From positions 54,781 to 118,780 of the forward strand of contig OY968788.1 of the NCBI GenBank assembly GCA_963695435.1: DNA of 64,000 bases, written 5' to 3'. Below are positions 28,839-60,860 of this stretch, one piece after another. Source of the stretch: an uncultured bacterium (GTDB lineage Bacteria > Patescibacteriota > Kazan-3B-28). The position numbers and the translations under genes are program-made. The number at the start of each line of letters is the position of its first letter. Positions within the stretch are counted from its first letter, which is position 1. The notes under the pieces are model-generated. The model saw only the letters and a list, made by a program, of their open reading frames with translations. It was not told the origin of the DNA and did not search any database.

Positions 28839-28902
28839 GTTTTTCTTTTTCTGTCATGCTTGAGCGAAGCGAAGCATCTATAATGATGTTTCTTTTTGTT
28901 TT

Positions 28903-29105
28903 CAAGGGTCTCCGCGACCCTTGTATCGCGGTTACTTTGTCTTGTCAAAGTAACCAAACCGTCCCGCCAGTCGCTTTCGCTATTCATCTAATAAAATTAG
29001 CTTTCTGACTTACGGCGAACTCCTCCTTGTCAGTCGTCAAACAGCGCCTTCGTCAGCGCTAATTTTATTGATTCATTACACTCAAGCTCCAATGGCGGAT
29101 GGGAG
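28903..29105 (+). repeat. Intergenic structured repeat element, copy 1 of 3. Two leader hairpins are followed by a core of about 140 nt closed by long-range pairing, ending ctcaagctccaatggcgg.
   Basis: The core 28963-29105 is about 92% identical to 60727-60860. The hairpins 28903-28960 match 34963-35020. Confidence 0.7.
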
Positions 29106-34838: not shown

Positions 34839-34962
34839 GGTTAAGAATCCTTATCTATGGTTGAGCCCTGTGGGCTTCACCCCGAGATGCTCGGGGAGTA
34901 GAAGGTTAGAGTTATATGAGAGGAGTATAAGGGATTGACCTGAACAGGTCAAGGGAGGGGTG

Positions 34963-35190
34963 CAAGGGTCTGCGCGACCCTTGTACCGCGGTTACTTTGT
35001 CTTGTCAAAGCGACGGAAACCGCTTGCCCACGTCGTCGGGCTTATTCATTGGATAAATTACCTTACCGCTTAAAGGGCAAACTCACCCGATAGCCATCGG
35101 GTTCAAACATGCCCCCGCGACGGCAATTTATCTCAATTCAGGACAGCCCTCCTCCTATGGCATGAAGACAAAAGCTCCAATGGTGGGGAG
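34963..35190 (+). repeat. Intergenic structured repeat element, copy 2 of 3 (divergent copy)
   Basis: The leader hairpins ggtctgcgcgaccc and ggttactttgtcttgtcaaag match copy 1. In the core, the closing stem arms are replaced by different but still complementary sequences (ggataaattacc / ggcaatttatct). The 3' end is aagctccaatggtgggg. Confidence 0.55.
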
Positions 35191-35244: not shown

Positions 35245-35334
35245 GGAGGGTTCGCCTAGTGGTCTATGGCGCTCGCTTGGAAAGCGGGTTGGGGCGCAAG
35301 CCTCTCGAGGGTTCGAATCCCTCACCCTCCGCCA
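35245..35334 (+). tRNA. tRNA-Ser (anticodon GGA), class II
   Basis: The acceptor stem is ggagggt/accctcc. The anticodon loop is uuGGAaa. A long variable arm and CCA are present. Confidence 0.8.
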
Positions 35335-35347
35335 GAAAGGAGATAGT

Positions 35348-36094
35348 ATGTTTGTCAAAGCGATTAGGGTGGCGCAGGATGTGATGTTCCCAATTTTTGG
35401 TTGGAATCAAATTTCGCCAACCGAAGCACAGGTTGGGGTTGCAGGCACGGGCTTTTTCGTTAGTTCGGAGGGGCACTTTGTCTCTGTGGCCCATGTTTTT
35501 GATACAGGCAACACGACTACCAAATTTCTATATATAGGACGTCTACCAGAAGAAGTTCATACCCGGCTTGAAATTCAGGAGATTGCTAGAGATGACGAGA
35601 ATGATGTTTTTCTGGGCAAAGTTGATGTAAAAGGTGTCCCGTATGTGATAGTGGATTCATTGGTCCCAGATGTGGGTCGTTCGGTTTGTATTGGCGGGTA
35701 TCCTTTGGCTACAATTTCAACCAACGAAAACGGAGGTCTGCAACTTGGTGGGGTTCGTCGTTATTTTCAGCCCTCATTCGTTTTGGATAAAGCGGGGGAG
35801 TTGCTTAGTAAGGGACCAACGGGGAAAATTAGAAAACATAATGGGTATCCAGTTCGTGATGCGGGACTTTATGGTATGAGTGGTGGTCCTGTGTTTGATG
35901 CGGACGGTAATGTCGTAGGTGTTCAAGGGTCTATTATTTCTCGGGACAGTAAAAATGCGGTAGGGCAATCGATTGCTGTTCACAACGCGTTTTCATTGCA
36001 GATGAATAAGTTTGTGGATCTAATGCGCAAACACGGTGTCGGGAATAATAGGGTGGTTGACGCAGGGAGCCTAGAACCTATTTCGTCGGAATAA
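35348..36094 (+). CDS. Cytoplasmic trypsin-like (S1/chymotrypsin-fold) serine protease
   Basis: The catalytic triad context is GTGFFVS..HFVSVAHV (His), DENDVFLG (Asp) and GMSGGPVFD (Ser). No signal peptide or transmembrane segment is present. Confidence 0.6.
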   Translation: MFVKAIRVAQDVMFPIFGWNQISPTEAQVGVAGTGFFVSSEGHFVSVAHVFDTGNTTTKFLYIGRLPEEVHTRLEIQEIARDDENDVFLGKVDVKGVPYVIVDSLVPDVGRSVCIGGYPLATISTNENGGLQLGGVRRYFQPSFVLDKAGELLSKGPTGKIRKHNGYPVRDAGLYGMSGGPVFDADGNVVGVQGSIISRDSKNAVGQSIAVHNAFSLQMNKFVDLMRKHGVGNNRVVDAGSLEPISSE

Positions 36095-36096
36095 TT

Positions 36097-36507
36097 ATGA
36101 CAAACTTTATTACAAGAATATTCCCTTCTAAAGAAGTAAAAGCAGCGTTAGGAGTCATCGATGAGGCGGCTGTGATTTTTGATGACAACTTATCCTTCCC
36201 GTTAGTAATAGGCCATGTTCGGTCGATGATTCTGGCACAACCAGAGAAATTTGTATCCATAATTCAGAAGGGGCAGACTCCTCGTGCATGGGTGTATTCC
36301 GCTATTGCTAATGTGGCAAGCGACCTTGCCGAGAGTGGAAACTATCATCTTTACAGGGGTATGTTGAATCCAATCGGGCCCGGTGGTGGTTTGTTTAAAT
36401 TATATTCTGCGGCAGTTGATGAATTAGTACACCTTGGGGTTGTGGATGAAAGTTCTGCTAAAGAACATAAAGCGCAGGTGGCTCACAATATTGGTCAGGT
36501 TGGGTAA
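36097..36507 (+). CDS. Hypothetical 136-aa protein, probably translationally coupled to the protease (gap of 2 nt)
   Basis: It is an ORF with no recognisable motif and sits in a compact two-gene unit. Confidence 0.4.
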   Translation: MTNFITRIFPSKEVKAALGVIDEAAVIFDDNLSFPLVIGHVRSMILAQPEKFVSIIQKGQTPRAWVYSAIANVASDLAESGNYHLYRGMLNPIGPGGGLFKLYSAAVDELVHLGVVDESSAKEHKAQVAHNIGQVG

Positions 36508-36528
36508 GACTTTATTTGTTATTTTTTT

Positions 36529-38259
36529 ATGACGGATTTAGAGGAAATAAAGGGGAAGATTGATTTGGTCGATTTTATCGGTCGATATTTGCCGTTGAAA
36601 AAAGCGGGGACGAATTACAAAGGTTTGTGTCCTTTTCATATGGAAAAGACTCCGTCTTTTATGGTGAGCCCTGACAAGCAGATTTGGCATTGCTTTGGCT
36701 GTGGGCGGGGCGGAGATGTTTTCAAATTTGTAATGGAAAAAGAAGGAATTGGATTTGCGGAGGCCTTGCAGATGTTGGCGGAGCAGGCGGGGATTCAACT
36801 TTCTAAAGTTCCGCAGTCAGGGATTGATACTCGCAAGACTTTGATGAACATCAATGAGACGGCGGCGAGATTTTATGAAAAAGTTTTGCAGGATACTAAT
36901 GAAGGCAGAGCGGCAAAAGAATATATGGTAGGGAGGGGGATGCTGCCGGCTACATTAACGGAGTTTCGAATTGGTTTTGCGCCTAGAGGTGGGAAAGCGT
37001 TGGTGGAGTTTTTGATTCGTAAAGGTGCGAAAGAAGCGGATATTGAAAAGGCGGGGTTGGGAGTCCGTAAGGGACAATTTTTATACGATAAATTTGTGGG
37101 GCGGGTGATGTTCCCATTGTGGGATAGTCTTGGCAGGGTGGTGGCATTTACGGGACGAGTTTTGGATCCGAGTGGAATTCCTAAATATTTGAATTCACCA
37201 GAGACCCCTCTATTCCATAAAAGCGAACTGCTTTACGGGCTGCATTTGGCAAAACAGACTATCCAGCGAGAGGGACGGGTAGTTTTGGTAGAAGGGCAGA
37301 TGGATACAATTAGTTCCTATCAAGCGGGGGTGAAAAATGTGGTGGGGATTTCGGGAACGGCGCTGACGGAACAACAACTGCAAATGCTAAACCGTTACTG
37401 CAAAGAAATTGTGTTGTCGTTGGATGCGGATACTGCCGGCGGAGAAGCTACGCGTAGAGCGTTAGAGATGGCAAACAATTTTGATATGGCGATGAAAGTC
37501 GTTTTGTTAGGCGGCCACAAAGATCCCGATTCGATGATTAAGGAAAATCCTGAAAATTGGAAACGGGCGGTAGAAGAAGCAGTGCCTGTGATGGATTTCT
37601 ATTTTGATGTGGCGGCACGGAAATATAATGTTGCTAAATTAGAAGACAAGAAACAACTGACACGCGAATTGCTGTCAGTGATTACCAAAGTGAATGACCC
37701 AGTAGAACGGGATCACTATATAAAGAGGTTGGCGCGAACGGTGGACGTTGATCCGTCAATTTTGTATGACACGCTGAAAAAATCGCTGAAGCCAGCTCGT
37801 AGCTTCATGAAGCCCGTGGCCGGGGAGGCAACCGAGATGTCCCCAACTTGGCTGGAGGAGCGGGCAGTGATGCTGCCGATGTTGGCTCCCAATCTAATGT
37901 CCCAACTACTGGCGGTGGGCGGGCGGATAAAATGGGCTTCTGGACTGGCAAATACCATTTACGATGCGATGTCTTCTTGGTATACTGCCAACACAACCCT
38001 GTCAGCTGAAGATTTTTTGAAACGACTTCCCGAGCCAACTAAAACTGCTGCCTCGGAACTGATGCTAGTTTTGGAACAAGGCTATGAGGAGGTTTCTGGG
38101 GAAGATTTGGAAAAGGAACTGAAATTCTATCTTGATTTACTACTGAATCGATCAGCAACTGTCAGGAGAAATGAACTGGCAGCAGCAATCGCGGAAGCGG
38201 AAGCAAAAAATGATCAAGCAAGGGTGGCGGAGCTCCTGAAAGAACTTAATCAACTATAA
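36529..38259 (+). CDS. dnaG: DNA primase
   Basis: The zinc ribbon CPFHMEKTPSFMV...CFGCG is present, followed by a TOPRIM domain. Confidence 0.9.
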   Translation: MTDLEEIKGKIDLVDFIGRYLPLKKAGTNYKGLCPFHMEKTPSFMVSPDKQIWHCFGCGRGGDVFKFVMEKEGIGFAEALQMLAEQAGIQLSKVPQSGIDTRKTLMNINETAARFYEKVLQDTNEGRAAKEYMVGRGMLPATLTEFRIGFAPRGGKALVEFLIRKGAKEADIEKAGLGVRKGQFLYDKFVGRVMFPLWDSLGRVVAFTGRVLDPSGIPKYLNSPETPLFHKSELLYGLHLAKQTIQREGRVVLVEGQMDTISSYQAGVKNVVGISGTALTEQQLQMLNRYCKEIVLSLDADTAGGEATRRALEMANNFDMAMKVVLLGGHKDPDSMIKENPENWKRAVEEAVPVMDFYFDVAARKYNVAKLEDKKQLTRELLSVITKVNDPVERDHYIKRLARTVDVDPSILYDTLKKSLKPARSFMKPVAGEATEMSPTWLEERAVMLPMLAPNLMSQLLAVGGRIKWASGLANTIYDAMSSWYTANTTLSAEDFLKRLPEPTKTAASELMLVLEQGYEEVSGEDLEKELKFYLDLLLNRSATVRRNELAAAIAEAEAKNDQARVAELLKELNQL

Positions 38260-38280: not shown

Positions 38281-39957
38281 ATGGCGAGCAAAAAAACTGC
38301 TCCAAAAAAGAAAGCAGCCCCTCGCGTGGCGGGTAAACGGGCGGTGGCTCGGAAACGGGTGACCGTCGGGAAAAAGCCGGCGAAAAGTAAGCAGGTCAGC
38401 AGGTCAGCAGGTAAGCGGGCAAGTAATAAAAAAGTAGTGAAAAAAATGGCAAAGAAGAAACCGATTAGAAAACCGGCTCCAAAAAAGACCGCCCCTAAAC
38501 GGGCAGGTAAAAAACGGGTGATTAAGAAAAAGCCGGCAAAAAAATTGGTAAAGAAAGTATCAAAGAAAAAGCCGGCAAAAAAGATAGTAAAGAAGAGACC
38601 GATAAAAAAGGCTGTTAAGAAGAAACCAGCGAAGAAACTGAAGCCGAAGAAGTCGGTAAAGAAACCGTTGAAGAAGCTAGCAAAGAAAGTTGCTCCTAAG
38701 AAGGTAAGTAAAAAACGCAAATCAGAAGCAGAAGAATTGCTCGGAGAGCCAAGACCAGAAGAACCAAAACTCAAGATATTTGAGATTGAGGATGAAGACG
38801 AAATTGCCAAAAAAAGGAAACGCAAAGAATCTGGTATTGGTAAGCTCCCGGGGCCGGTAGCGGATTTGGTATCCGCCGGTAAGGCAAAAGGCTTTATCAC
38901 TCAACAAGAACTAGAGCAGGCGGTCCCGAATGTGGAAAAGCAAATCGAAATGCTTGATTTGTTGTTCCAGATTTTGATGGAAGAAGGAATTGAGGTGGTA
39001 GATGTTCGGGACGATCTGATCTGGGCATTGGCCGGGGACAGTAAGCTAAGCAAGAAAACTGAAGCCACTAAGAAAAAAATGCGGAACAAGCTGGATGTGA
39101 ATATCGATCCGCACTTGTTGGAAGATGACATCAGTGATGACTCGGTAAGGATGTATCTGAAGGAAATCGGACAGGTGCCGTTGCTTCGAGCCGAAGAAGA
39201 AGTCGCGTTGGCAAAACGAGTGGAAATGGGTGATGTGCTGGCGTCCAAACAGTTGGCGGAAGCAAACTTGCGGTTGGTTGTATCGATTGCCAAAAAATAT
39301 ATTGGCCGAGGATTGTCGCTTTTGGATTTGATTCAGGAAGGCAACATCGGTTTGATGAAAGCGGTGGAGAAATTTGACTGGCGACGAGGATTCAAATTCT
39401 CAACTTACGCGACTTGGTGGATTCGTCAGGCCATTACTCGCGCCATTGCCGACCAAGCTCGAACAATTCGTATCCCGGTGCACATGGTAGAAACGATGAA
39501 CAGGCTTTCTCGTACTCAACGGCAATTGGTGCAAGAGCTTGGGCGTGAGCCGACTCCAGAAGAAATTGCCAATGAAATGGAATTGGAAGTTGAAAAAGTT
39601 AACCACATTCTAAAGATTTCGCAGGAGACTGTATCTTTGGAAAAGTCGGTCGGTGACGAAGATGACTCTTTGCTTGGTGACTTTATTCAAGATGAAGATA
39701 GTCTGACGCCGGAAGAAGCTTCGGCTTACGAACTTCTGAAAGGTGATGTGGGCGGAGTACTTGATTTGTTGTCGCCAAGAGAGCAAAAGATTCTGAAGTT
39801 GCGATTTGGTCTTGGCGGCGAGTGGGCACACACGCTGGAGGAAGTAGGTAAAGAATTCGGAGTCACTCGTGAGCGTATTCGTCAGATCGAAGCTAAGGCA
39901 CTAATGAAATTGCGCAAGAGCAAAGACAGTAAGAAGTTGAAAGATTATTTGAAGTAA
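38281..39957 (+). CDS. rpoD: RNA polymerase sigma factor RpoD (sigma70) with a roughly 170-aa lysine-rich N-terminal extension of histone-H1-like AKKPAKK repeats
   Basis: The region 2 motif is [30 protein letters not shown]. The region 4 motif is [15 protein letters not shown]. The dnaG-rpoD order is conserved. Confidence 0.9.
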
Positions 39958-46347: not shown

Positions 46348-46423
46348 GGGCCCGTAACTCAGTGGTTAGAGTAGTCCCCTCATAAGGGATTAGTCCTTGG
46401 TTCGAATCCAAGCGGGCCCACCA
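46348..46423 (+). tRNA. tRNA with CAT anticodon, probably tRNA-Ile2 (lysidine tRNA) or an elongator Met
   Basis: The acceptor stem gggcccg/cgggccc is fully paired. The anticodon loop is cuCAUaa. The D-arm resembles E. coli tRNA-Ile2. CCA is encoded. Confidence 0.75.
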
Positions 46424-46556
46424 CGGCGTCGAAATGGCTTCGCTCGACGCGCGAGCAAAACAGGTTTGCTCGGCTAATGAAGCTCAGCATTTCTCCTTTC
46501 AAAATTACAAACACTTCGTTGGTTTACAATTTTGGTTAGAGACAAAGACTTAGTAT
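46424..46556 (+). repeat. tRNA-trailer repeat element
   Basis: It begins cgtcgaaatggcttc as at 1284. It shares gctcggctaAtg and cagcatttctcctttc with that copy and carries the variant motif ttggtttacaattttggttag. Confidence 0.65.
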
Positions 46557-46565
46557 GTTTTCAAG

Positions 46566-46907
46566 ATGAAGAAGGCGATATCATATCTTTTTTATTTCAA
46601 AGCGCTGGTTTGGATAACTCTAGCGTTCTTTTATTTGAGTCGCCATCTTAGTCCTAATGAAAATGTGGTCTACCAAATTGTTGCTGGTTTACTGTTTGTG
46701 AATGGTTCTGCATACGCAGTTTTGGGATATCTTTTGAGACAAAAAGTTCGGTGGGTATTTTGGCTGTCGCTTGTTTTGGTGGCGGGAAATATTTTGCTGA
46801 CAATTACTGACCAAGTGGGCTGGGTGGATTGGATATCTTTGGCTACTGATTTGGTTCTGGTAGTTTTGTTGCTTTGGTACAGAAAGGAATGGATTCCATC
46901 AAAATAG
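46566..46907 (+). CDS. Hypothetical 113-aa membrane protein (3-4 transmembrane helices)
   Basis: It is an ORF with hydrophobic segments and lies between two convergent tRNA genes and their trailer repeats. Confidence 0.4.
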   Translation: MKKAISYLFYFKALVWITLAFFYLSRHLSPNENVVYQIVAGLLFVNGSAYAVLGYLLRQKVRWVFWLSLVLVAGNILLTITDQVGWVDWISLATDLVLVVLLLWYRKEWIPSK

Positions 46908-46914
46908 TGGCATC

Positions 46915-47042
46915 GTGCGCGGACTCAAACCAAAATCACAAACTAACGAAGTGTTTGTGATTTTGAAAGGAGAAATAACGAGACCCAAAAGCAACCCCGA
47001 GCCTGTCGAGGGCGTTAGCGTAAAGTCGAGTTTATTTCGACG
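46915..47042 (-). repeat. tRNA-trailer repeat element (minus strand, behind the initiator tRNA)
   Basis: The reverse complement reads atttctcctttcaaaatcacaaacacttcgttagtttgtgattttggtttgagtccgcgcacgatgccac. It forms an inverted repeat with 46480-46556. Confidence 0.65.
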
Positions 47043-47118
47043 TGGTTGCGGGGGTGAGATTCGAACTCACGACCTTCAGGTTATGAGCCTGACGAGCTAG
47101 CCACTGCTCTACCCCGCG
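47043..47118 (-). tRNA. Initiator tRNA-fMet (anticodon CAT)
   Basis: A C1xA72 mismatch is present (5' cgcgggg, 3' ccccgca + a + cca). The anticodon arm ucaggcuCAUaaccuga is E. coli tRNAfMet-like. Confidence 0.8.
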
Positions 47119-47152
47119 AGCCAATGTTAGCAATTCAGCTCATATCTGTCCA

Positions 47153-47217
47153 CCCCGTAGAAGAAATTTAATCGCGCTTTGCGCACCAGTCGAAGACATT
47201 AAATTTTCTCTACGGGG
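47153..47217. repeat. Conserved long palindromic hairpin (20-bp arms ccccgtagaagaaatttaat / attaaattttctctacgggg), copy 1
   Basis: The same arms, with a different loop, occur at 63603-63679. On the minus strand it immediately precedes a candidate promoter for the initiator tRNA (TGGACA, 17 nt, TAACAT). Confidence 0.6.
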
Positions 47218-47227
47218 TCCACCCCTA

Positions 47228-47653
47228 TCAAGCGACTTCGTGCAAACCGAGTATCAATCTCCACCATTTTTCGGGGTTGGTTGGTTCCTTTGGAACGGTT
47301 TTTGTTTGGTCTTGGATGTTACCTTCTGTAAATCTTTCAATGTCTTCGTTGGGAATTATCAGCACAGTTTCTCCAACTTTCTGGTAGTTCAGTTTTTCCC
47401 TTGCTTCCTTATCTTTGAAAGCATCTGTTTGGCGGTAGGCGATTAGATTTTGCAGATATTTGTTGTGTAATTTGAGGTCAGCGTTTTCCTGTCTTAGTTG
47501 AGTCAGCTCTTTATCTATTTGATAATTTTGCCAAATTGCTTGAATGGTTGAAACTACCATATATACCAAAAGGATTGCCCCCATGGTCATCAATAGTCTC
47601 GCACGCAATTCCTTGCCCTGCGGTAACTTAATTTTTCCTGATAGCTTGTTCAT
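47228..47653 (-). CDS. ftsB: FtsB/DivIC-like septum formation initiator (short N-terminus, one transmembrane segment, coiled coil)
   Basis: LRARLLMTMGAILLVYMVV is the transmembrane segment. A Q/L-rich coiled coil follows (LTQLRQENADLKL). The start is placed at MNKLSGK; the ORF track's TTG start would overlap the upstream tRNA. Confidence 0.6.
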   Translation of the reverse strand: MNKLSGKIKLPQGKELRARLLMTMGAILLVYMVVSTIQAIWQNYQIDKELTQLRQENADLKLHNKYLQNLIAYRQTDAFKDKEAREKLNYQKVGETVLIIPNEDIERFTEGNIQDQTKTVPKEPTNPEKWWRLILGLHEVA

Positions 47654-47658
47654 AGTTT

Positions 47659-47733
47659 TGGTGCCAGCGACAGGATTCGCACCTGTGACCAATGGCTTAT
47701 GAGTCCACTGCTCTACTGCTGAGCTACGCTGGC
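47659..47733 (-). tRNA. Elongator tRNA-Met (anticodon CAT)
   Basis: The acceptor stem is gccagcg/cgctggc. The anticodon loop is cuCAUaa. The variable loop and T-arm ggtcacaggtgcgaatcc are near-identical to E. coli elongator tRNA-Met. CCA is encoded. Confidence 0.8.
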
Positions 47734-52396: not shown

Positions 52397-52594
52397 AGCA
52401 ATGGAAGAAGAAGAGTGAGGAATTTTTGGACAAACGAAAAGGGCTACCGAGTGGTAGCCCTGCGGAATTTAACCGCTACTATCCAGTAAGGAAGGGGGTC
52501 CTTACAAGAAGCAAAGGTTCAGAACTGACCATAGGGTCAGAGTTTCGCCAAACTTTGAAGTCTGGCTGAATAATAGAAAAGAAAAAAGGACAAA

Positions 52595-52683
52595 GTACCC
52601 GGCGAGACTCGAACCCGCTTCCTTCTGGATCCCTAAGTATCTGGGTGTAGCCAGACGCTCTAGCCCAATTGAGCTACGGGTAC
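52595..52683 (-). tRNA. Atypical tRNA-like gene with unresolved isotype. The acceptor, D and T arms are canonical, the anticodon-loop candidate is CUACACC and there is a 21-nt extra region. No CCA is encoded.
   Basis: The reverse complement is gtacccg-ta-gctc-aattgggcta-gagc-g-tctgg-ctacacc-ccaga-tacttagggatccagaaggaa-gcggg-ttcgagt-ctcgc-cgggtac. Confidence 0.45.
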
Positions 52684-59546: not shown

Positions 59547-60650
59547 ATGGCATTTGATTCGTGGTTTATGAGTGGTAATTATTACGAGATATTGGGTGTA
59601 TCAAAAACTGCTACACCAGATGAACTAAAAAAAGCTTATCGGAAGCTTGCTTTGAAATATCATCCTGACAAAGGGGGTGGGGCGGAGGCAGAAAAGAAAT
59701 TCAAAGAAATAAACGAGGCGTATCAGGTTCTGTCGGACGAAACTAAACGGCGGCAGTACGATCAATACGGCCAAGTGTTTGGCAATGGTCAGCAGGCAGG
59801 GGCGGGATTCGGAGGATTTGATTTTAGTTCTTTTGGCGGAGAAAACTTTGGCGATTTTGGAGATATATTTGAAACATTTTTTGGCGGAGGCGGGAGGAAG
59901 TCCAAGCGGAGCAAGGAAGATATCTTGAGAGGAGAAGACATTGAGCTGGTGATGGAATTGAGTTTTGAGGAGGCGATTTTTGGCGGAGAAAAAACTATTT
60001 TGGTGACACATGAAACTGTTTGTAAAAATTGCAACGGAACCGGCTCATCAACAAAAAAACAAACCACTTGTGCTAAATGCGGAGGAACGGGACGAATTGA
60101 AATCACTCGCCAAACAGTATTTGGCGCAATTCGTCAGTCTCAAACTTGTTCAGTCTGCAAAGGAGCGGGGGAAGTGCCGGAAAAAGAATGTCAGACTTGT
60201 CGCGGAGCGGGACGAGTGCGTCAGCAACGAGAAGTGAAAATAAAAATTCCCGCAGGCATTGATGGAGGACAAACAATTCGGGTGAATAGCGAAGGTAATG
60301 CTGGTAAGCGCGGAGGGAAGTCCGGCGATTTGTATATTACCGTAAAAATCAGACCCAGTCGCGAATATCGGCGTTCGGGCGCGGATTTGTATAAAACAAT
60401 TTCCATACCTTTCACTAAAGTTGTGTTGGGCGGAAGCGTAAAAGTAAATACTTTGTACGGGGAACTGAATGTAAAAATTCCACCTGCAACTAAGGCAGGA
60501 GAAGTTTTGCGGGTGCGCAATTACGGCGTTCCGACAGGAAGCACTAAGGGAAGTTTGTATTTGCAAATGGATATTGACGTTCCCACTAGGTTAACGATTA
60601 AACAACGTAGGTTGCTTCAAGAGCTTGATGGGGAACTAAGAGACAATTAG
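59547..60650 (+). CDS. dnaJ: Chaperone DnaJ
   Basis: The J-domain carries HPD. A G/F region is present. Four CxxCxGxG zinc-finger repeats are present. Confidence 0.9.
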
Positions 60651-60666
60651 TTTTTTATTTTCTTTT

Positions 60667-60860
60667 TAAGCGCTCGCGCCGCGCTTAGACTGGCGGTGTC
60701 TTTTCTAGAAAAGACACCCAAAAGTCCCCGCCAGTCGCTTTCGCTATTCATCTAATAAAATTAACTTTCTGACTTACAGCGAACTCGCTACGCTCAAACA
60801 GCGCCTTCGTCAGCGCTAATTTTATTGATTCAGTACACTCAAGCTCCAATGGCGGATAGA
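60667..60860 (+). repeat. Intergenic structured repeat element, copy 3 of 3
   Basis: The core 60727-60860 is about 92% identical to 28963-29105. It is preceded by two different hairpins (aagcgctcgcgccgcgctt; ggtgtcttttctagaaaagacacc). Confidence 0.7.

What the first reader, a model, noticed from the sequence alone, without database searches (positions are those of the whole stretch)
35348..36507. Cytoplasmic trypsin-like protease with a coupled 136-aa partner, wedged between tRNA-Ser(GGA) and dnaG
The S1-fold protease has a recognisable His/Asp/Ser triad (GMSGGPVFD) but no secretion signal, which is unusual for this family. It is followed after 2 nt by a small protein of unknown fold. The pair sits directly downstream of a tRNA gene and of repeat-element copy 2, a typical landing site for accessory modules. 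Protease-plus-partner pairs of this shape occur in abortive-infection and defence-type systems, but none is recognisable here by name.
Basis: inference. Interest (0 to 1): 0.6.

Follow-up and report, generated by a model that had tools for sequence, protein, structure and literature searches.

The report
Accessory protease cassette beside tRNA-Ser
A signal-less trypsin-type protease gene and a small helical-protein gene sit in a swap-prone slot between a serine tRNA and the primase gene of a tiny-genome bacterium, but the two genes are never found together elsewhere, so this looks like two stacked accessory genes rather than a recognisable two-part system.

Summary
It shows a 248-aa Trypsin_2 protease with an intact H49/D86/S178 triad and no signal peptide. 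A 136-aa ORF starts 2 nt after its stop. tRNA-Ser(GGA) lies 13 nt upstream and dnaG 21 nt downstream. The "accessory module at a tRNA landing site" reading is supported. In relative loci with 82-92% identical DnaG the flanks are kept, but the slot holds NT5C and other nucleotide-salvage genes instead. DNA homology breaks at the tRNA 3' end and resumes at the dnaG start. The "protease-plus-partner system" reading is not supported. None of 21 other independent protease-family loci carries the partner domain. None of 49 dereplicated partner-family loci carries this protease family. The protease belongs to a rare, strongly conserved, leaderless family of about 240 aa, mostly in Patescibacteria. 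Its recurrent neighbours are LexA-S24-methyltransferase fusions, restriction-modification genes, a MORC-like GHKL ATPase and tRNA-Ser genes. The partner is a soluble copy of an unannotated helical domain (at least 691 clusters). That domain is usually C-terminal, often follows membrane anchors, and is linked to DUF6804. Both functions remain unknown. A defence or conflict role for the protease is plausible but only inferred.

The parts
35245..35334 (+). Resident tRNA-Ser(GGA). Its 3' end is the left boundary of the variable slot.
   Evidence: ARAGORN and Rfam. It is 84-96% identical to the tRNA at the same position in relatives L106, L107, L109 and L110, and homology stops at 35334/35335.
35335..35347 (+). 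13-nt spacer holding the protease Shine-Dalgarno (GAAAGGAGATAGT).
   Evidence: Read directly from the sequence.
35348..36094 (+). Leaderless S1C-like (Trypsin_2) serine endopeptidase, 248 aa. Catalytic codons are H49 at 35492-35494, D86 at 35603-35605 and S178 at 35879-35881.
   Evidence: Pfam. 185 homologues, the listed best 45-59% identical. Invariant triad. AF2 pLDDT 88.8. Foldseek places it nearest the MarP, DegS and HtrA protease domains.
36097..36507 (+). 136-aa soluble all-helical protein, a stand-alone copy of an unannotated domain family. Its most conserved motif, ESGnYHlYRGmLnPiGpG (residues 79-96), is encoded at 36331-36384.
   Evidence: No hit in Pfam, NCBIfam, PADLOC or PHROGs. 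Profile search finds 691 representatives. AF2 pLDDT 78.9 with seven helices, and the motif lies in the low-confidence stretch around residues 81-100. Alignment A3.
36508..36528 (+). 21-nt T-rich spacer to dnaG. It is the right boundary of the slot, and homology to relatives resumes at 36528/36529.
36529..38259 (+). dnaG, a conserved flank, followed by rpoD and tRNA-Asn. It is probably co-transcribed with the cassette.
   Evidence: No convincing terminator lies between the genes. Co-transcription is inferred, not shown.

Best explanation
This is a 1.2-kb lineage-specific accessory cassette. It fills a variable slot between the resident tRNA-Ser(GGA) and the dnaG-rpoD operon of a small-genome Patescibacteria bacterium related to candidate division Kazan. 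The cassette stacks two genes from two unrelated, uncharacterised, horizontally spread families.

Gene 1 encodes a cytoplasmic, PDZ-less, S1C-like serine endopeptidase with a complete catalytic triad. Its family is rare and unusually well conserved. It recurs beside restriction-modification genes, LexA-S24-methyltransferase fusions, a MORC-like GHKL ATPase and tRNA-Ser genes. The inferred role is a substrate-specific effector or processing protease of conflict or stress modules, not a general quality-control enzyme.

Gene 2 encodes a soluble copy of a helical domain of about 134 aa. Elsewhere that domain is usually the cytoplasmic C-terminal end of membrane-anchored proteins, or it is coupled to a DUF6804 membrane protein. 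The inferred role is a binding or regulatory module.

Shown: the gene structures, the fold, the triad, accessory status, the slot boundaries and the lack of co-occurrence of the two families. Inferred: co-transcription with dnaG from the tRNA promoter, translational coupling of gene 2 to gene 1, a conflict-related role for the protease, and any interaction between the two proteins.
For: Relative loci with 82-92% identical DnaG (four genomes or populations, L105-L110) keep rpsR-ssb-rpsF, tRNA-Ser(GGA), dnaG-rpoD and tRNA-Asn. Between the tRNA and dnaG they carry NT5C, with or without NUDIX and Nuc_deoxyrib_tr (L106 also has a cytidylate kinase gene upstream of the tRNA). None carries the protease or the partner. 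BLASTN homology ends at 35334/35335 and resumes at 36528/36529.

The two genes have GC3 of 0.394 and 0.380, the lowest of 20 window genes, which range from 0.418 to 0.552.

The protease family is sparse. It has 185 clusters among 5.8 billion proteins and 20 loci among 185,579 species genomes, mostly Patescibacteria. It has 41 invariant columns.

The partner domain is absent from all protease loci. The protease family is absent from the partner loci.

Protease neighbours are as follows. LexA_DNA_bind/Peptidase_S24 fused to a DNA methylase lies divergently adjacent in L004, L009, L012 and L014. Type II MTases and REases are present. An HATPase_c_3/Morc6_S5 ATPase lies directly upstream in L008, L010 and L127. 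A serine recombinase is present in L016.

tRNA-Ser lies directly beside the protease in the window, L019 and L010, and 390 nt away in L007. In the closest relative, L105, an element carrying a LAGLIDADG gene and a tRNA-Ser(GGA) has disrupted the resident tRNA-Ser. This shows that the site is a target for mobile DNA.

In the partner family, 65 of the best 150 representatives are longer proteins, 40 of them with TM segments, and the domain is C-terminal in 62 of 67 domain hits. A DUF6804 gene sits directly downstream or is fused in 14 loci. Partner loci also hold XRE, TIR plus 8xMP, PycTM and AbiTii genes.
Against: The 2-nt gap, the weak partner ribosome-binding site and the near-identical GC3 of the two genes fit co-acquisition and co-expression as a unit. 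There is no integrase or direct repeat delimiting the cassette, so the insertion mechanism is unknown. Some protease-family loci sit among housekeeping genes such as SecDF and topoisomerase, so the conflict-system reading of the protease rests on a minority of loci (about 8 of 21). Many metagenomic contigs are short, which limits the power of the absence statements for partner loci.
Confidence: 0.6

Rival explanations
1. The two genes form a genuine, recently assembled two-gene module. The protease would be a toxin or effector. The 136-aa protein would be its inhibitor or antitoxin, its adaptor, or a pro-effector activated by cleavage. This would be analogous to protease-activated pro-nucleases or to the protease toxin / ATPase antitoxin pair ietAS.
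For: The two genes are separated by 2 nt, and the partner has a weak Shine-Dalgarno, which implies coupled translation. Both have the same unusually low GC3. The partner's most conserved motif lies in a flexible, low-confidence loop that could be a recognition or cleavage site. In three other lineages a protease gene of another class lies directly upstream of a partner-domain gene: a retropepsin-like aspartyl protease in L047, L052 and L075, and a secreted HtrA-like protease in L084. An active cytoplasmic protease generally needs restraint.
Against: None of the 21 other independent protease-family loci has the partner domain within up to 6 kb. None of the partner loci has this protease family. 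The nearest homologues of each gene (57-58% identity) have other neighbours. The partner has no toxin, antitoxin or defence signature.
Confidence: 0.17
2. The protease is a housekeeping cytoplasmic quality-control or processing protease of this reduced genome, expressed with dnaG-rpoD. The small protein is an unrelated housekeeping factor.
For: The genes lie in the same orientation immediately upstream of dnaG-rpoD, with no terminator between them. The nearest solved folds are HtrA, DegS and MarP quality-control proteases. Some family members lie among housekeeping genes.
Against: Both genes are absent from all four close relatives at this locus. The family is found in only 20 of 185,579 species genomes. 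There is no PDZ domain or membrane anchor, and the HtrA equivalog scores are far below the cutoffs, 32 bits against 450. GC3 is atypical.
Confidence: 0.08
3. The cassette is leftover cargo of a decayed integrative element or prophage that used tRNA-Ser(GGA) as its attachment site. The two genes have no current role.
For: The cassette lies directly at the 3' end of a tRNA. The same tRNA is disrupted by a mobile LAGLIDADG/tRNA element in relative L105. The protease family sits next to tRNA-Ser in three other lineages. The copy in L019 is frameshifted.
Against: Both ORFs are intact, with all family-invariant residues. There is no integrase, no att-type repeat of the tRNA 3' end and no other phage-like gene. 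There are no close relatives in phage or plasmid collections.
Confidence: 0.1
4. The 136-aa helical protein is an Rsd-like or anti-sigma-type regulator of the sigma-70 encoded two genes downstream.
For: It is all-helical and lies upstream of rpoD. One of 58 family members gave a weak Rsd_AlgQ hit, E=0.0095.
Confidence: 0.03

Closest known systems
HtrA/DegS/MarP protease domains (MEROPS S1C, Pfam Trypsin_2)
   Same: Chymotrypsin double-barrel fold, His-Asp-Ser triad in the same order, and a GxSGGP oxyanion-hole motif. These are the best Foldseek matches, at E=3e-11 to 1e-9 and TM about 0.6.
   Different: Identity is only 15-20%. There is no signal peptide, membrane anchor or PDZ domain. The N-terminal helix MFVKAIK..MFPIF is conserved and family-specific. 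The protein is cytoplasmic and sporadically distributed. HtrA family models score far below their cutoffs.
Trypsin-like protease / MBL pro-nuclease pairs acquired by Hachiman, AVAST, Lamassu and DRT systems (Tuck et al., PMC12799240)
   Same: A cytoplasmic trypsin-like protease lies next to a separately encoded partner gene in accessory DNA. The protease domain gives weak domain-level matches to the RT-Protease_XI and LmuA models.
   Different: In those systems the partner is an MBL-fold nuclease encoded upstream, and the protease is fused to the N-terminus of a defence enzyme. Here the protease stands alone, the upstream element is a tRNA, and the adjacent protein is a 136-aa helical domain. 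No MBL gene lies near any family member, apart from one distant gene in L007 that carries only the HxHxDH motif.
ietAS (serine protease toxin plus ATPase antitoxin; defence and plasmid stabilisation)
   Same: It is a two-gene logic of a protease kept in check by a co-encoded protein. The GHKL-ATPase-then-protease pairs of family members L008, L010 and L127 resemble its ATPase-plus-protease layout.
   Different: From my own knowledge, IetS is subtilisin-like (S8) and IetA is an AAA ATPase. The window has no ATPase gene, and the ATPase seen with relatives is GHKL/MORC-like.
tRNA-linked genomic islets and variable operon-leader slots
   Same: The insertion abuts a tRNA 3' end, is absent from close relatives with conserved flanks, and has atypical GC3.
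   Different: It is only 1.2 kb, with no integrase and no flanking direct repeat. It replaces other cargo (NT5C-type genes) instead of interrupting an empty site.

Membership tests
Pfam Trypsin_2 / clan PA serine peptidase | Profile match above the curated threshold | tested here: met
   55.9 bits against a 27.6-bit cutoff, E=1e-14, covering profile positions 1-144 of 144.
Pfam Trypsin_2 / clan PA serine peptidase | His-Asp-Ser triad in that order, with GxSGG around the serine | tested here: met
   H49, D86 and S178 are invariant in 40 sequences. The local motif is GMSGGP.
Pfam Trypsin_2 / clan PA serine peptidase | Two-beta-barrel chymotrypsin fold | tested here: met
   AF2 pLDDT 88.8 and pTM 0.86. 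680 PDB chains match at E<=0.001, headed by the MarP, DegS and HtrA protease domains.
Pfam Trypsin_2 / clan PA serine peptidase | Peptidase activity | not testable with these tools
   Requires an enzyme assay of the wild type against an S178A mutant.
HtrA/DegP/DegS family | C-terminal PDZ domain(s) | tested here: not met
   The protein is 248 aa and the protease domain spans residues 33-212. There is no PDZ hit.
HtrA/DegP/DegS family | Export signal or membrane anchor | tested here: not met
   No hydrophobic segment, with a maximum KD19 of 1.18. The N-terminus is folded into the domain.
HtrA/DegP/DegS family | NCBIfam family score above cutoff | tested here: not met
   Best score is 32.1 bits against a 450-bit cutoff.
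MBL pro-nuclease / trypsin-like protease defence pair (Tuck et al.) | MBL-fold nuclease gene immediately adjacent, typically upstream | tested here: not met
   Upstream is the tRNA-Ser. The adjacent ORF is all-helical, with no Pfam hit and no HxHxDH motif.
MBL pro-nuclease / trypsin-like protease defence pair (Tuck et al.) | Protease fused to a defence core enzyme (HamA, Avs, LmuA or RT) | tested here: not met
   It is a stand-alone 248-aa protein. The PADLOC hits cover only the protease part of RT-Protease_XI (model positions 348-487) and LmuA.
Two-gene toxin-antitoxin or protease-partner system | The two gene families co-occur across lineages | tested here: not met
   0 of 21 other protease loci have the partner domain. 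0 of the partner loci have this protease family, and one has an unrelated secreted HtrA-like gene.
Two-gene toxin-antitoxin or protease-partner system | Toxicity of one component is neutralised by the other | not testable with these tools
   Needs expression experiments.
tRNA-associated genomic island | Lies at a tRNA 3' end and is absent from close relatives with conserved flanks | tested here: met
tRNA-associated genomic island | Integrase gene and direct repeat of the tRNA 3' end | tested here: not met
   There is no recombinase ORF between 35335 and 36528. No repeat of the tRNA end lies downstream.
tRNA-associated genomic island | Atypical base composition | tested here: inconclusive
   GC3 of 0.38-0.39 is the lowest of 20 genes, but the difference is modest and the genes are short.

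The most novel reading that the evidence does not exclude
The leaderless protease family of about 240 aa may be the common effector of a previously undescribed set of modular conflict systems in Patescibacteria and neighbouring phyla. It would be plugged into alternative sensor or regulator genes: a LexA-S24-methyltransferase fusion, a MORC-like GHKL ATPase, or, in this genome, the unannotated ESGxYHxYRG helical domain. The window would then show a new protease-partner combination in which the small protein gates the protease or is processed by it.
Probability: 0.13. Interest if true: 0.6.

Novelty: new member of a known kind. Interest (0 to 1): 0.36.

Why it matters
Taken as the two-gene system originally proposed, it matters little, because the pairing is unique to this genome. 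The follow-up does define two uncharacterised protein families that would repay study. The first is a very conserved cytoplasmic S1 protease of candidate-phyla bacteria that travels with restriction-modification genes, LexA-methyltransferase fusions, a GHKL ATPase and tRNA-Ser genes. The second is a helical domain with at least 691 clusters and no database annotation, typically tethered to membranes. The work also documents a swap-prone slot at the head of the dnaG-rpoD operon in a lineage with very small genomes. That slot is a useful marker for how such organisms exchange accessory genes.

Tried and rejected
- Named defence systems. PADLOC gave only domain-level hits to RT-Protease_XI and LmuA for the protease, and nothing for the partner.
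- Phage or plasmid origin. Two viral-contig scans for the protease found one distant 28% hit and then nothing. The partner was found on one viral contig and had one uncharacterised phage structural match. The INPHARED and PLSDB collections gave only generic protease hits at 28-30% identity, and none for the partner.
- A conserved downstream partner for the protease family. The downstream ORFs differ in every lineage, including a Zn-ribbon protein, TfoX_N and several unknown proteins.
- An MBL pro-nuclease neighbour. None was found.
- An apparent protease link through a 9-locus neighbour cluster. It proved to be TPR proteins sharing a non-protease segment with L084.
- Alignment A3 was too divergent for locus scanning. 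A 12-sequence subset worked.
- Promoter and terminator consensus scans were uninformative.
- An anti-sigma (Rsd-like) role for the partner was rejected (see the rival explanations).

Full report
**What is there.** The window carries two same-strand ORFs exactly as described: 35348-36094 (248 aa) and 36097-36507 (136 aa). The first is preceded by AAGGAG and starts 13 nt after tRNA-Ser(GGA) at 35245-35334. The second starts 2 nt after the first one's TAA and has only a weak ribosome-binding site. dnaG starts 21 nt after its stop and is followed by rpoD and tRNA-Asn. A repeat of about 200 nt, copy 2 of three in the window, lies upstream of the tRNA. Judged by DnaG, the genome is a Patescibacteria member related to candidate division Kazan, on a 560-kb contig.

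**The protease.**
- It matches Pfam Trypsin_2 above threshold.
- A 40-sequence alignment shows 41 invariant columns, including H49, D86 and S178. Almost all members begin at the same MFVKAI..MFPIF N-terminus.
- The AF2 model is confident (pLDDT 88.8). Its N-terminal helix and first strand are part of the fold.
- There is no hydrophobic leader.
- The closest solved structures are the protease domains of MarP, DegS and HtrA, at 15-20% identity. There is no PDZ domain, and HtrA family models score far below their cutoffs.
- It is therefore a leaderless, stand-alone, probably active S1C-like endopeptidase.
- The family is small and patchy. It has 185 clusters among 5.8 billion proteins and 20 loci in 185,579 species genomes. 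Most are Patescibacteria, with a few Omnitrophota, Chitinophagaceae and one Loki MAG contig.

**The partner.**
- The word-indexed search found only two homologues. An exhaustive profile search found 691 cluster representatives at E<=0.001.
- The domain is about 134 aa and all-helical (AF2 pLDDT 78.9).
- Its signature is ESGxYHxYRGxL..G, and 131 of the best 150 representatives end in Gly.
- The most conserved motif falls in the least confidently modelled stretch of the protein.
- Of the best 150 representatives, 85 stand alone and 65 are longer. In 62 of 67 domain hits in those longer proteins the domain is at the extreme C-terminus. It follows multi-pass membrane anchors in 40 of the 65, and zinc ribbons, ankyrin repeats or a receiver domain in others.

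**Is the pair a system?** The comparative evidence says no.
- A family HMM of the partner finds nothing in six-frame translations of 19 genome loci holding the protease (up to 6 kb each side), nor in two further loci for its closest homologues.
- A family HMM of the protease finds nothing in the 83 loci fetched for the partner family, which reduce to 49 after dereplication. The one exception is a weak hit to an unrelated secreted HtrA-like gene in L084.
- The nearest homologues of each gene (57-58% identity) have other neighbours.

**What the protease family travels with.**
- A LexA DNA-binding plus S24 domain fused to a C5 or N4/N6 DNA methyltransferase, divergently adjacent in four lineages (L004, L009, L012, L014).
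- Type II methyltransferases and restriction enzymes.
- A 548-aa MORC-like GHKL ATPase directly upstream in three lineages (L008, L010, L127), with a HicAB pair nearby in the L008-type loci.
- A large serine recombinase in L016.
- tRNA-Ser: directly beside the protease in the window, L019 and L010 (all anticodon GGA), and 390 nt away in L007 (GCT). My rough estimate is that a random gene lies next to a tRNA-Ser about 1% of the time, so this recurrence is unlikely to be chance. That estimate is an inference, not a computed statistic.

**What the partner family travels with.**
- A DUF6804 small membrane protein, directly downstream or fused, in 14 loci.
- XRE regulators.
- A cluster with a J-domain protein and a TPR protein.
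- Serine recombinases.
- Occasional defence genes: ThsB-TIR plus 8xMP, PycTM beside a likely cyclase gene, and AbiTii.

**Is it accessory?** Yes.
- Relative loci with 82-92% identical DnaG (L105-L110, four genomes or populations) keep the backbone rpsR-ssb-rpsF, tRNA-Ser(GGA), dnaG-rpoD and tRNA-Asn. L105 keeps only the right-hand part.
- Between the tRNA and dnaG they carry NT5C, with or without NUDIX and a nucleoside deoxyribosyltransferase. L106 also has a cytidylate kinase gene upstream of the tRNA. In three of the five loci NT5C overlaps the dnaG start.
- Nucleotide homology to the window stops at 35334/35335 and resumes at 36528/36529.
- The window has no NT5C, NUDIX or related gene anywhere in its 64 kb.
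- GC3 of the two cassette genes (0.394 and 0.380) is the lowest of 20 genes sampled.
- In the closest relative (L105, DnaG 92%), an element with an HTH-LAGLIDADG gene and an inverted tRNA-Ser(GGA) has replaced the 5' part of the resident tRNA and left a 49-nt, 100% identical 3' remnant. The same gene pair flanks the protease in L010. The tRNA-Ser(GGA) site is thus demonstrably a target for mobile DNA.
- The window cassette itself has no integrase and no flanking repeat.

**Mechanism.** My committed reading has the following parts.
- The cassette is transcribed with tRNA-Ser and dnaG-rpoD. This is inferred: the genes share a strand, the spacers are 13, 2 and 21 nt, and no convincing terminator was found.
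- The protease is a cytoplasmic endopeptidase whose strong conservation implies a specific substrate.
- Its recurrent neighbours point to a role in genetic-conflict or stress modules and not in bulk quality control.
- The partner is a binding or regulatory domain that normally works at the membrane.
- Whether it modulates the protease in this genome is open. I put that at about one in six.

**Comparison with known systems.** The best-characterised trypsin-like protease-plus-partner modules in immunity are the MBL pro-nuclease/protease pairs of Hachiman, AVAST, Lamassu and DRT (PMC12799240). Their defining features are an adjacent MBL nuclease gene and a protease fused to a defence enzyme. Both were tested here and are not met. 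ietAS is analogous only in logic. GHKL ATPase domains regulating defence effectors are known from Shedu variants (PMC12137116). That parallels the GHKL-protease pairs of relatives, but not the window itself.

**Verdict.** The protease-plus-partner system reading is not supported by conservation. The protease is a new member of a known kind: a stand-alone cytoplasmic trypsin-fold protease in accessory DNA. It sits next to a member of a sizeable but unannotated domain family. Interest is moderate to low for the pair itself. The two families and the variable tRNA-Ser/dnaG slot are worth recording.

Noticed in passing
window ~28885-29105, ~34955-35190, ~60650-60860: A repeat of about 200 nt with three intergenic copies, each upstream of a + strand gene. 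Two hairpins are kept by compensatory changes between copies 1/2 and copy 3 (for example CAAGGGTC..GACCCTTG against TAAGCGC..GCGCTTA). There is no Rfam match at E<=1. It is a candidate structured RNA or promoter-associated element. It was barely detectable in relatives by BLASTN.
   Followed up: partly
L105:1-1252 and L010:4216-5297: A mobile unit consists of an HTH-LAGLIDADG protein gene (334-341 aa) followed by its own tRNA-Ser(GGA). In L105 it sits inverted inside the resident tRNA-Ser(GGA) and leaves a 49-nt, 100% identical 3' remnant. In L010 the same unit abuts the protease gene.
   Followed up: partly
L004:4311-5879, L009:29-1621, L012:3825-4697, L014:4426-5982 (all - strand): These loci encode full LexA (DNA-binding plus S24 self-cleaving domain) fused to a DNA methyltransferase. 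The methyltransferase is C5 in L004 and L009 and N4/N6 in L012 and L014. Each gene is divergently transcribed from a protease-family gene, with 2-122 nt between the ORFs. The layout suggests damage-responsive control of a methylase, and perhaps of the protease.
   Followed up: partly
L008:3118-5488, L010:1841-4211, L127:3-1991: A two-gene module of a 548-aa MORC-like GHKL ATPase (HATPase_c_3 plus Morc6_S5) followed within about 40 nt by the protease. It is shared by lineages binned to different candidate phyla, with nearly identical ATPase N-termini in L008 and L010. The ATPase is split by a frameshift in L127.
   Followed up: partly
L105-L110, between tRNA-Ser and dnaG: In relatives the slot holds nucleotide-salvage genes: NT5C always, and NUDIX or nucleoside deoxyribosyltransferase in some. 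L106 also has a cytidylate kinase gene, but upstream of the tRNA. NT5C overlaps the dnaG start in three of the five loci. The window has none of these genes in its 64 kb.
   Followed up: partly
partner family (alignment A3; P0124-P0273): 131 of the 150 best representatives end in Gly, usually as ..VG-COOH. The near-invariant G81/H84/R87/G88/L90/G96 motif lies in the part of the fold that AF2 models worst. No explanation was found.
   Followed up: no
L019:2332-3029: The protease copy next to tRNA-Ser(GGA) in this Patescibacteria MAG is interrupted by a frameshift. It is either a pseudogene or an assembly error.
   Followed up: no
window 52594-52683 (-): ARAGORN reports a tRNA of undetermined identity, with a two-base 'anticodon' (ac) at position 36. 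Rfam scores it as a tRNA at 51.3 bits. It may have an unusual anticodon loop or an intron.
   Followed up: no
window 38281-38900: rpoD has a lysine-rich N-terminal extension of about 190 aa built from degenerate KKPAKK-type repeats (repeat family D1). A spurious 216-aa ORF lies on the opposite strand.
   Followed up: no
window 46348-47733 and 213-1404: There are clusters of tRNA genes (three tRNA-Met; Arg plus two Ser) flanked by 53-67-nt inverted repeats and by an 82-nt direct repeat that follows two different tRNAs (D5, I1-I4). This suggests duplicated tRNA-flanking modules.
   Followed up: no
L053:2895-4116; L030:4583-5444: Partner-family genes sometimes lie beside recognisable defence modules. 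L053 has a PycTM effector next to a gene that looks by eye like a nucleotide cyclase, although Pfam gave no hit for it. L030 and L079 have ThsB-type TIR plus the 8xMP membrane protein.
   Followed up: partly
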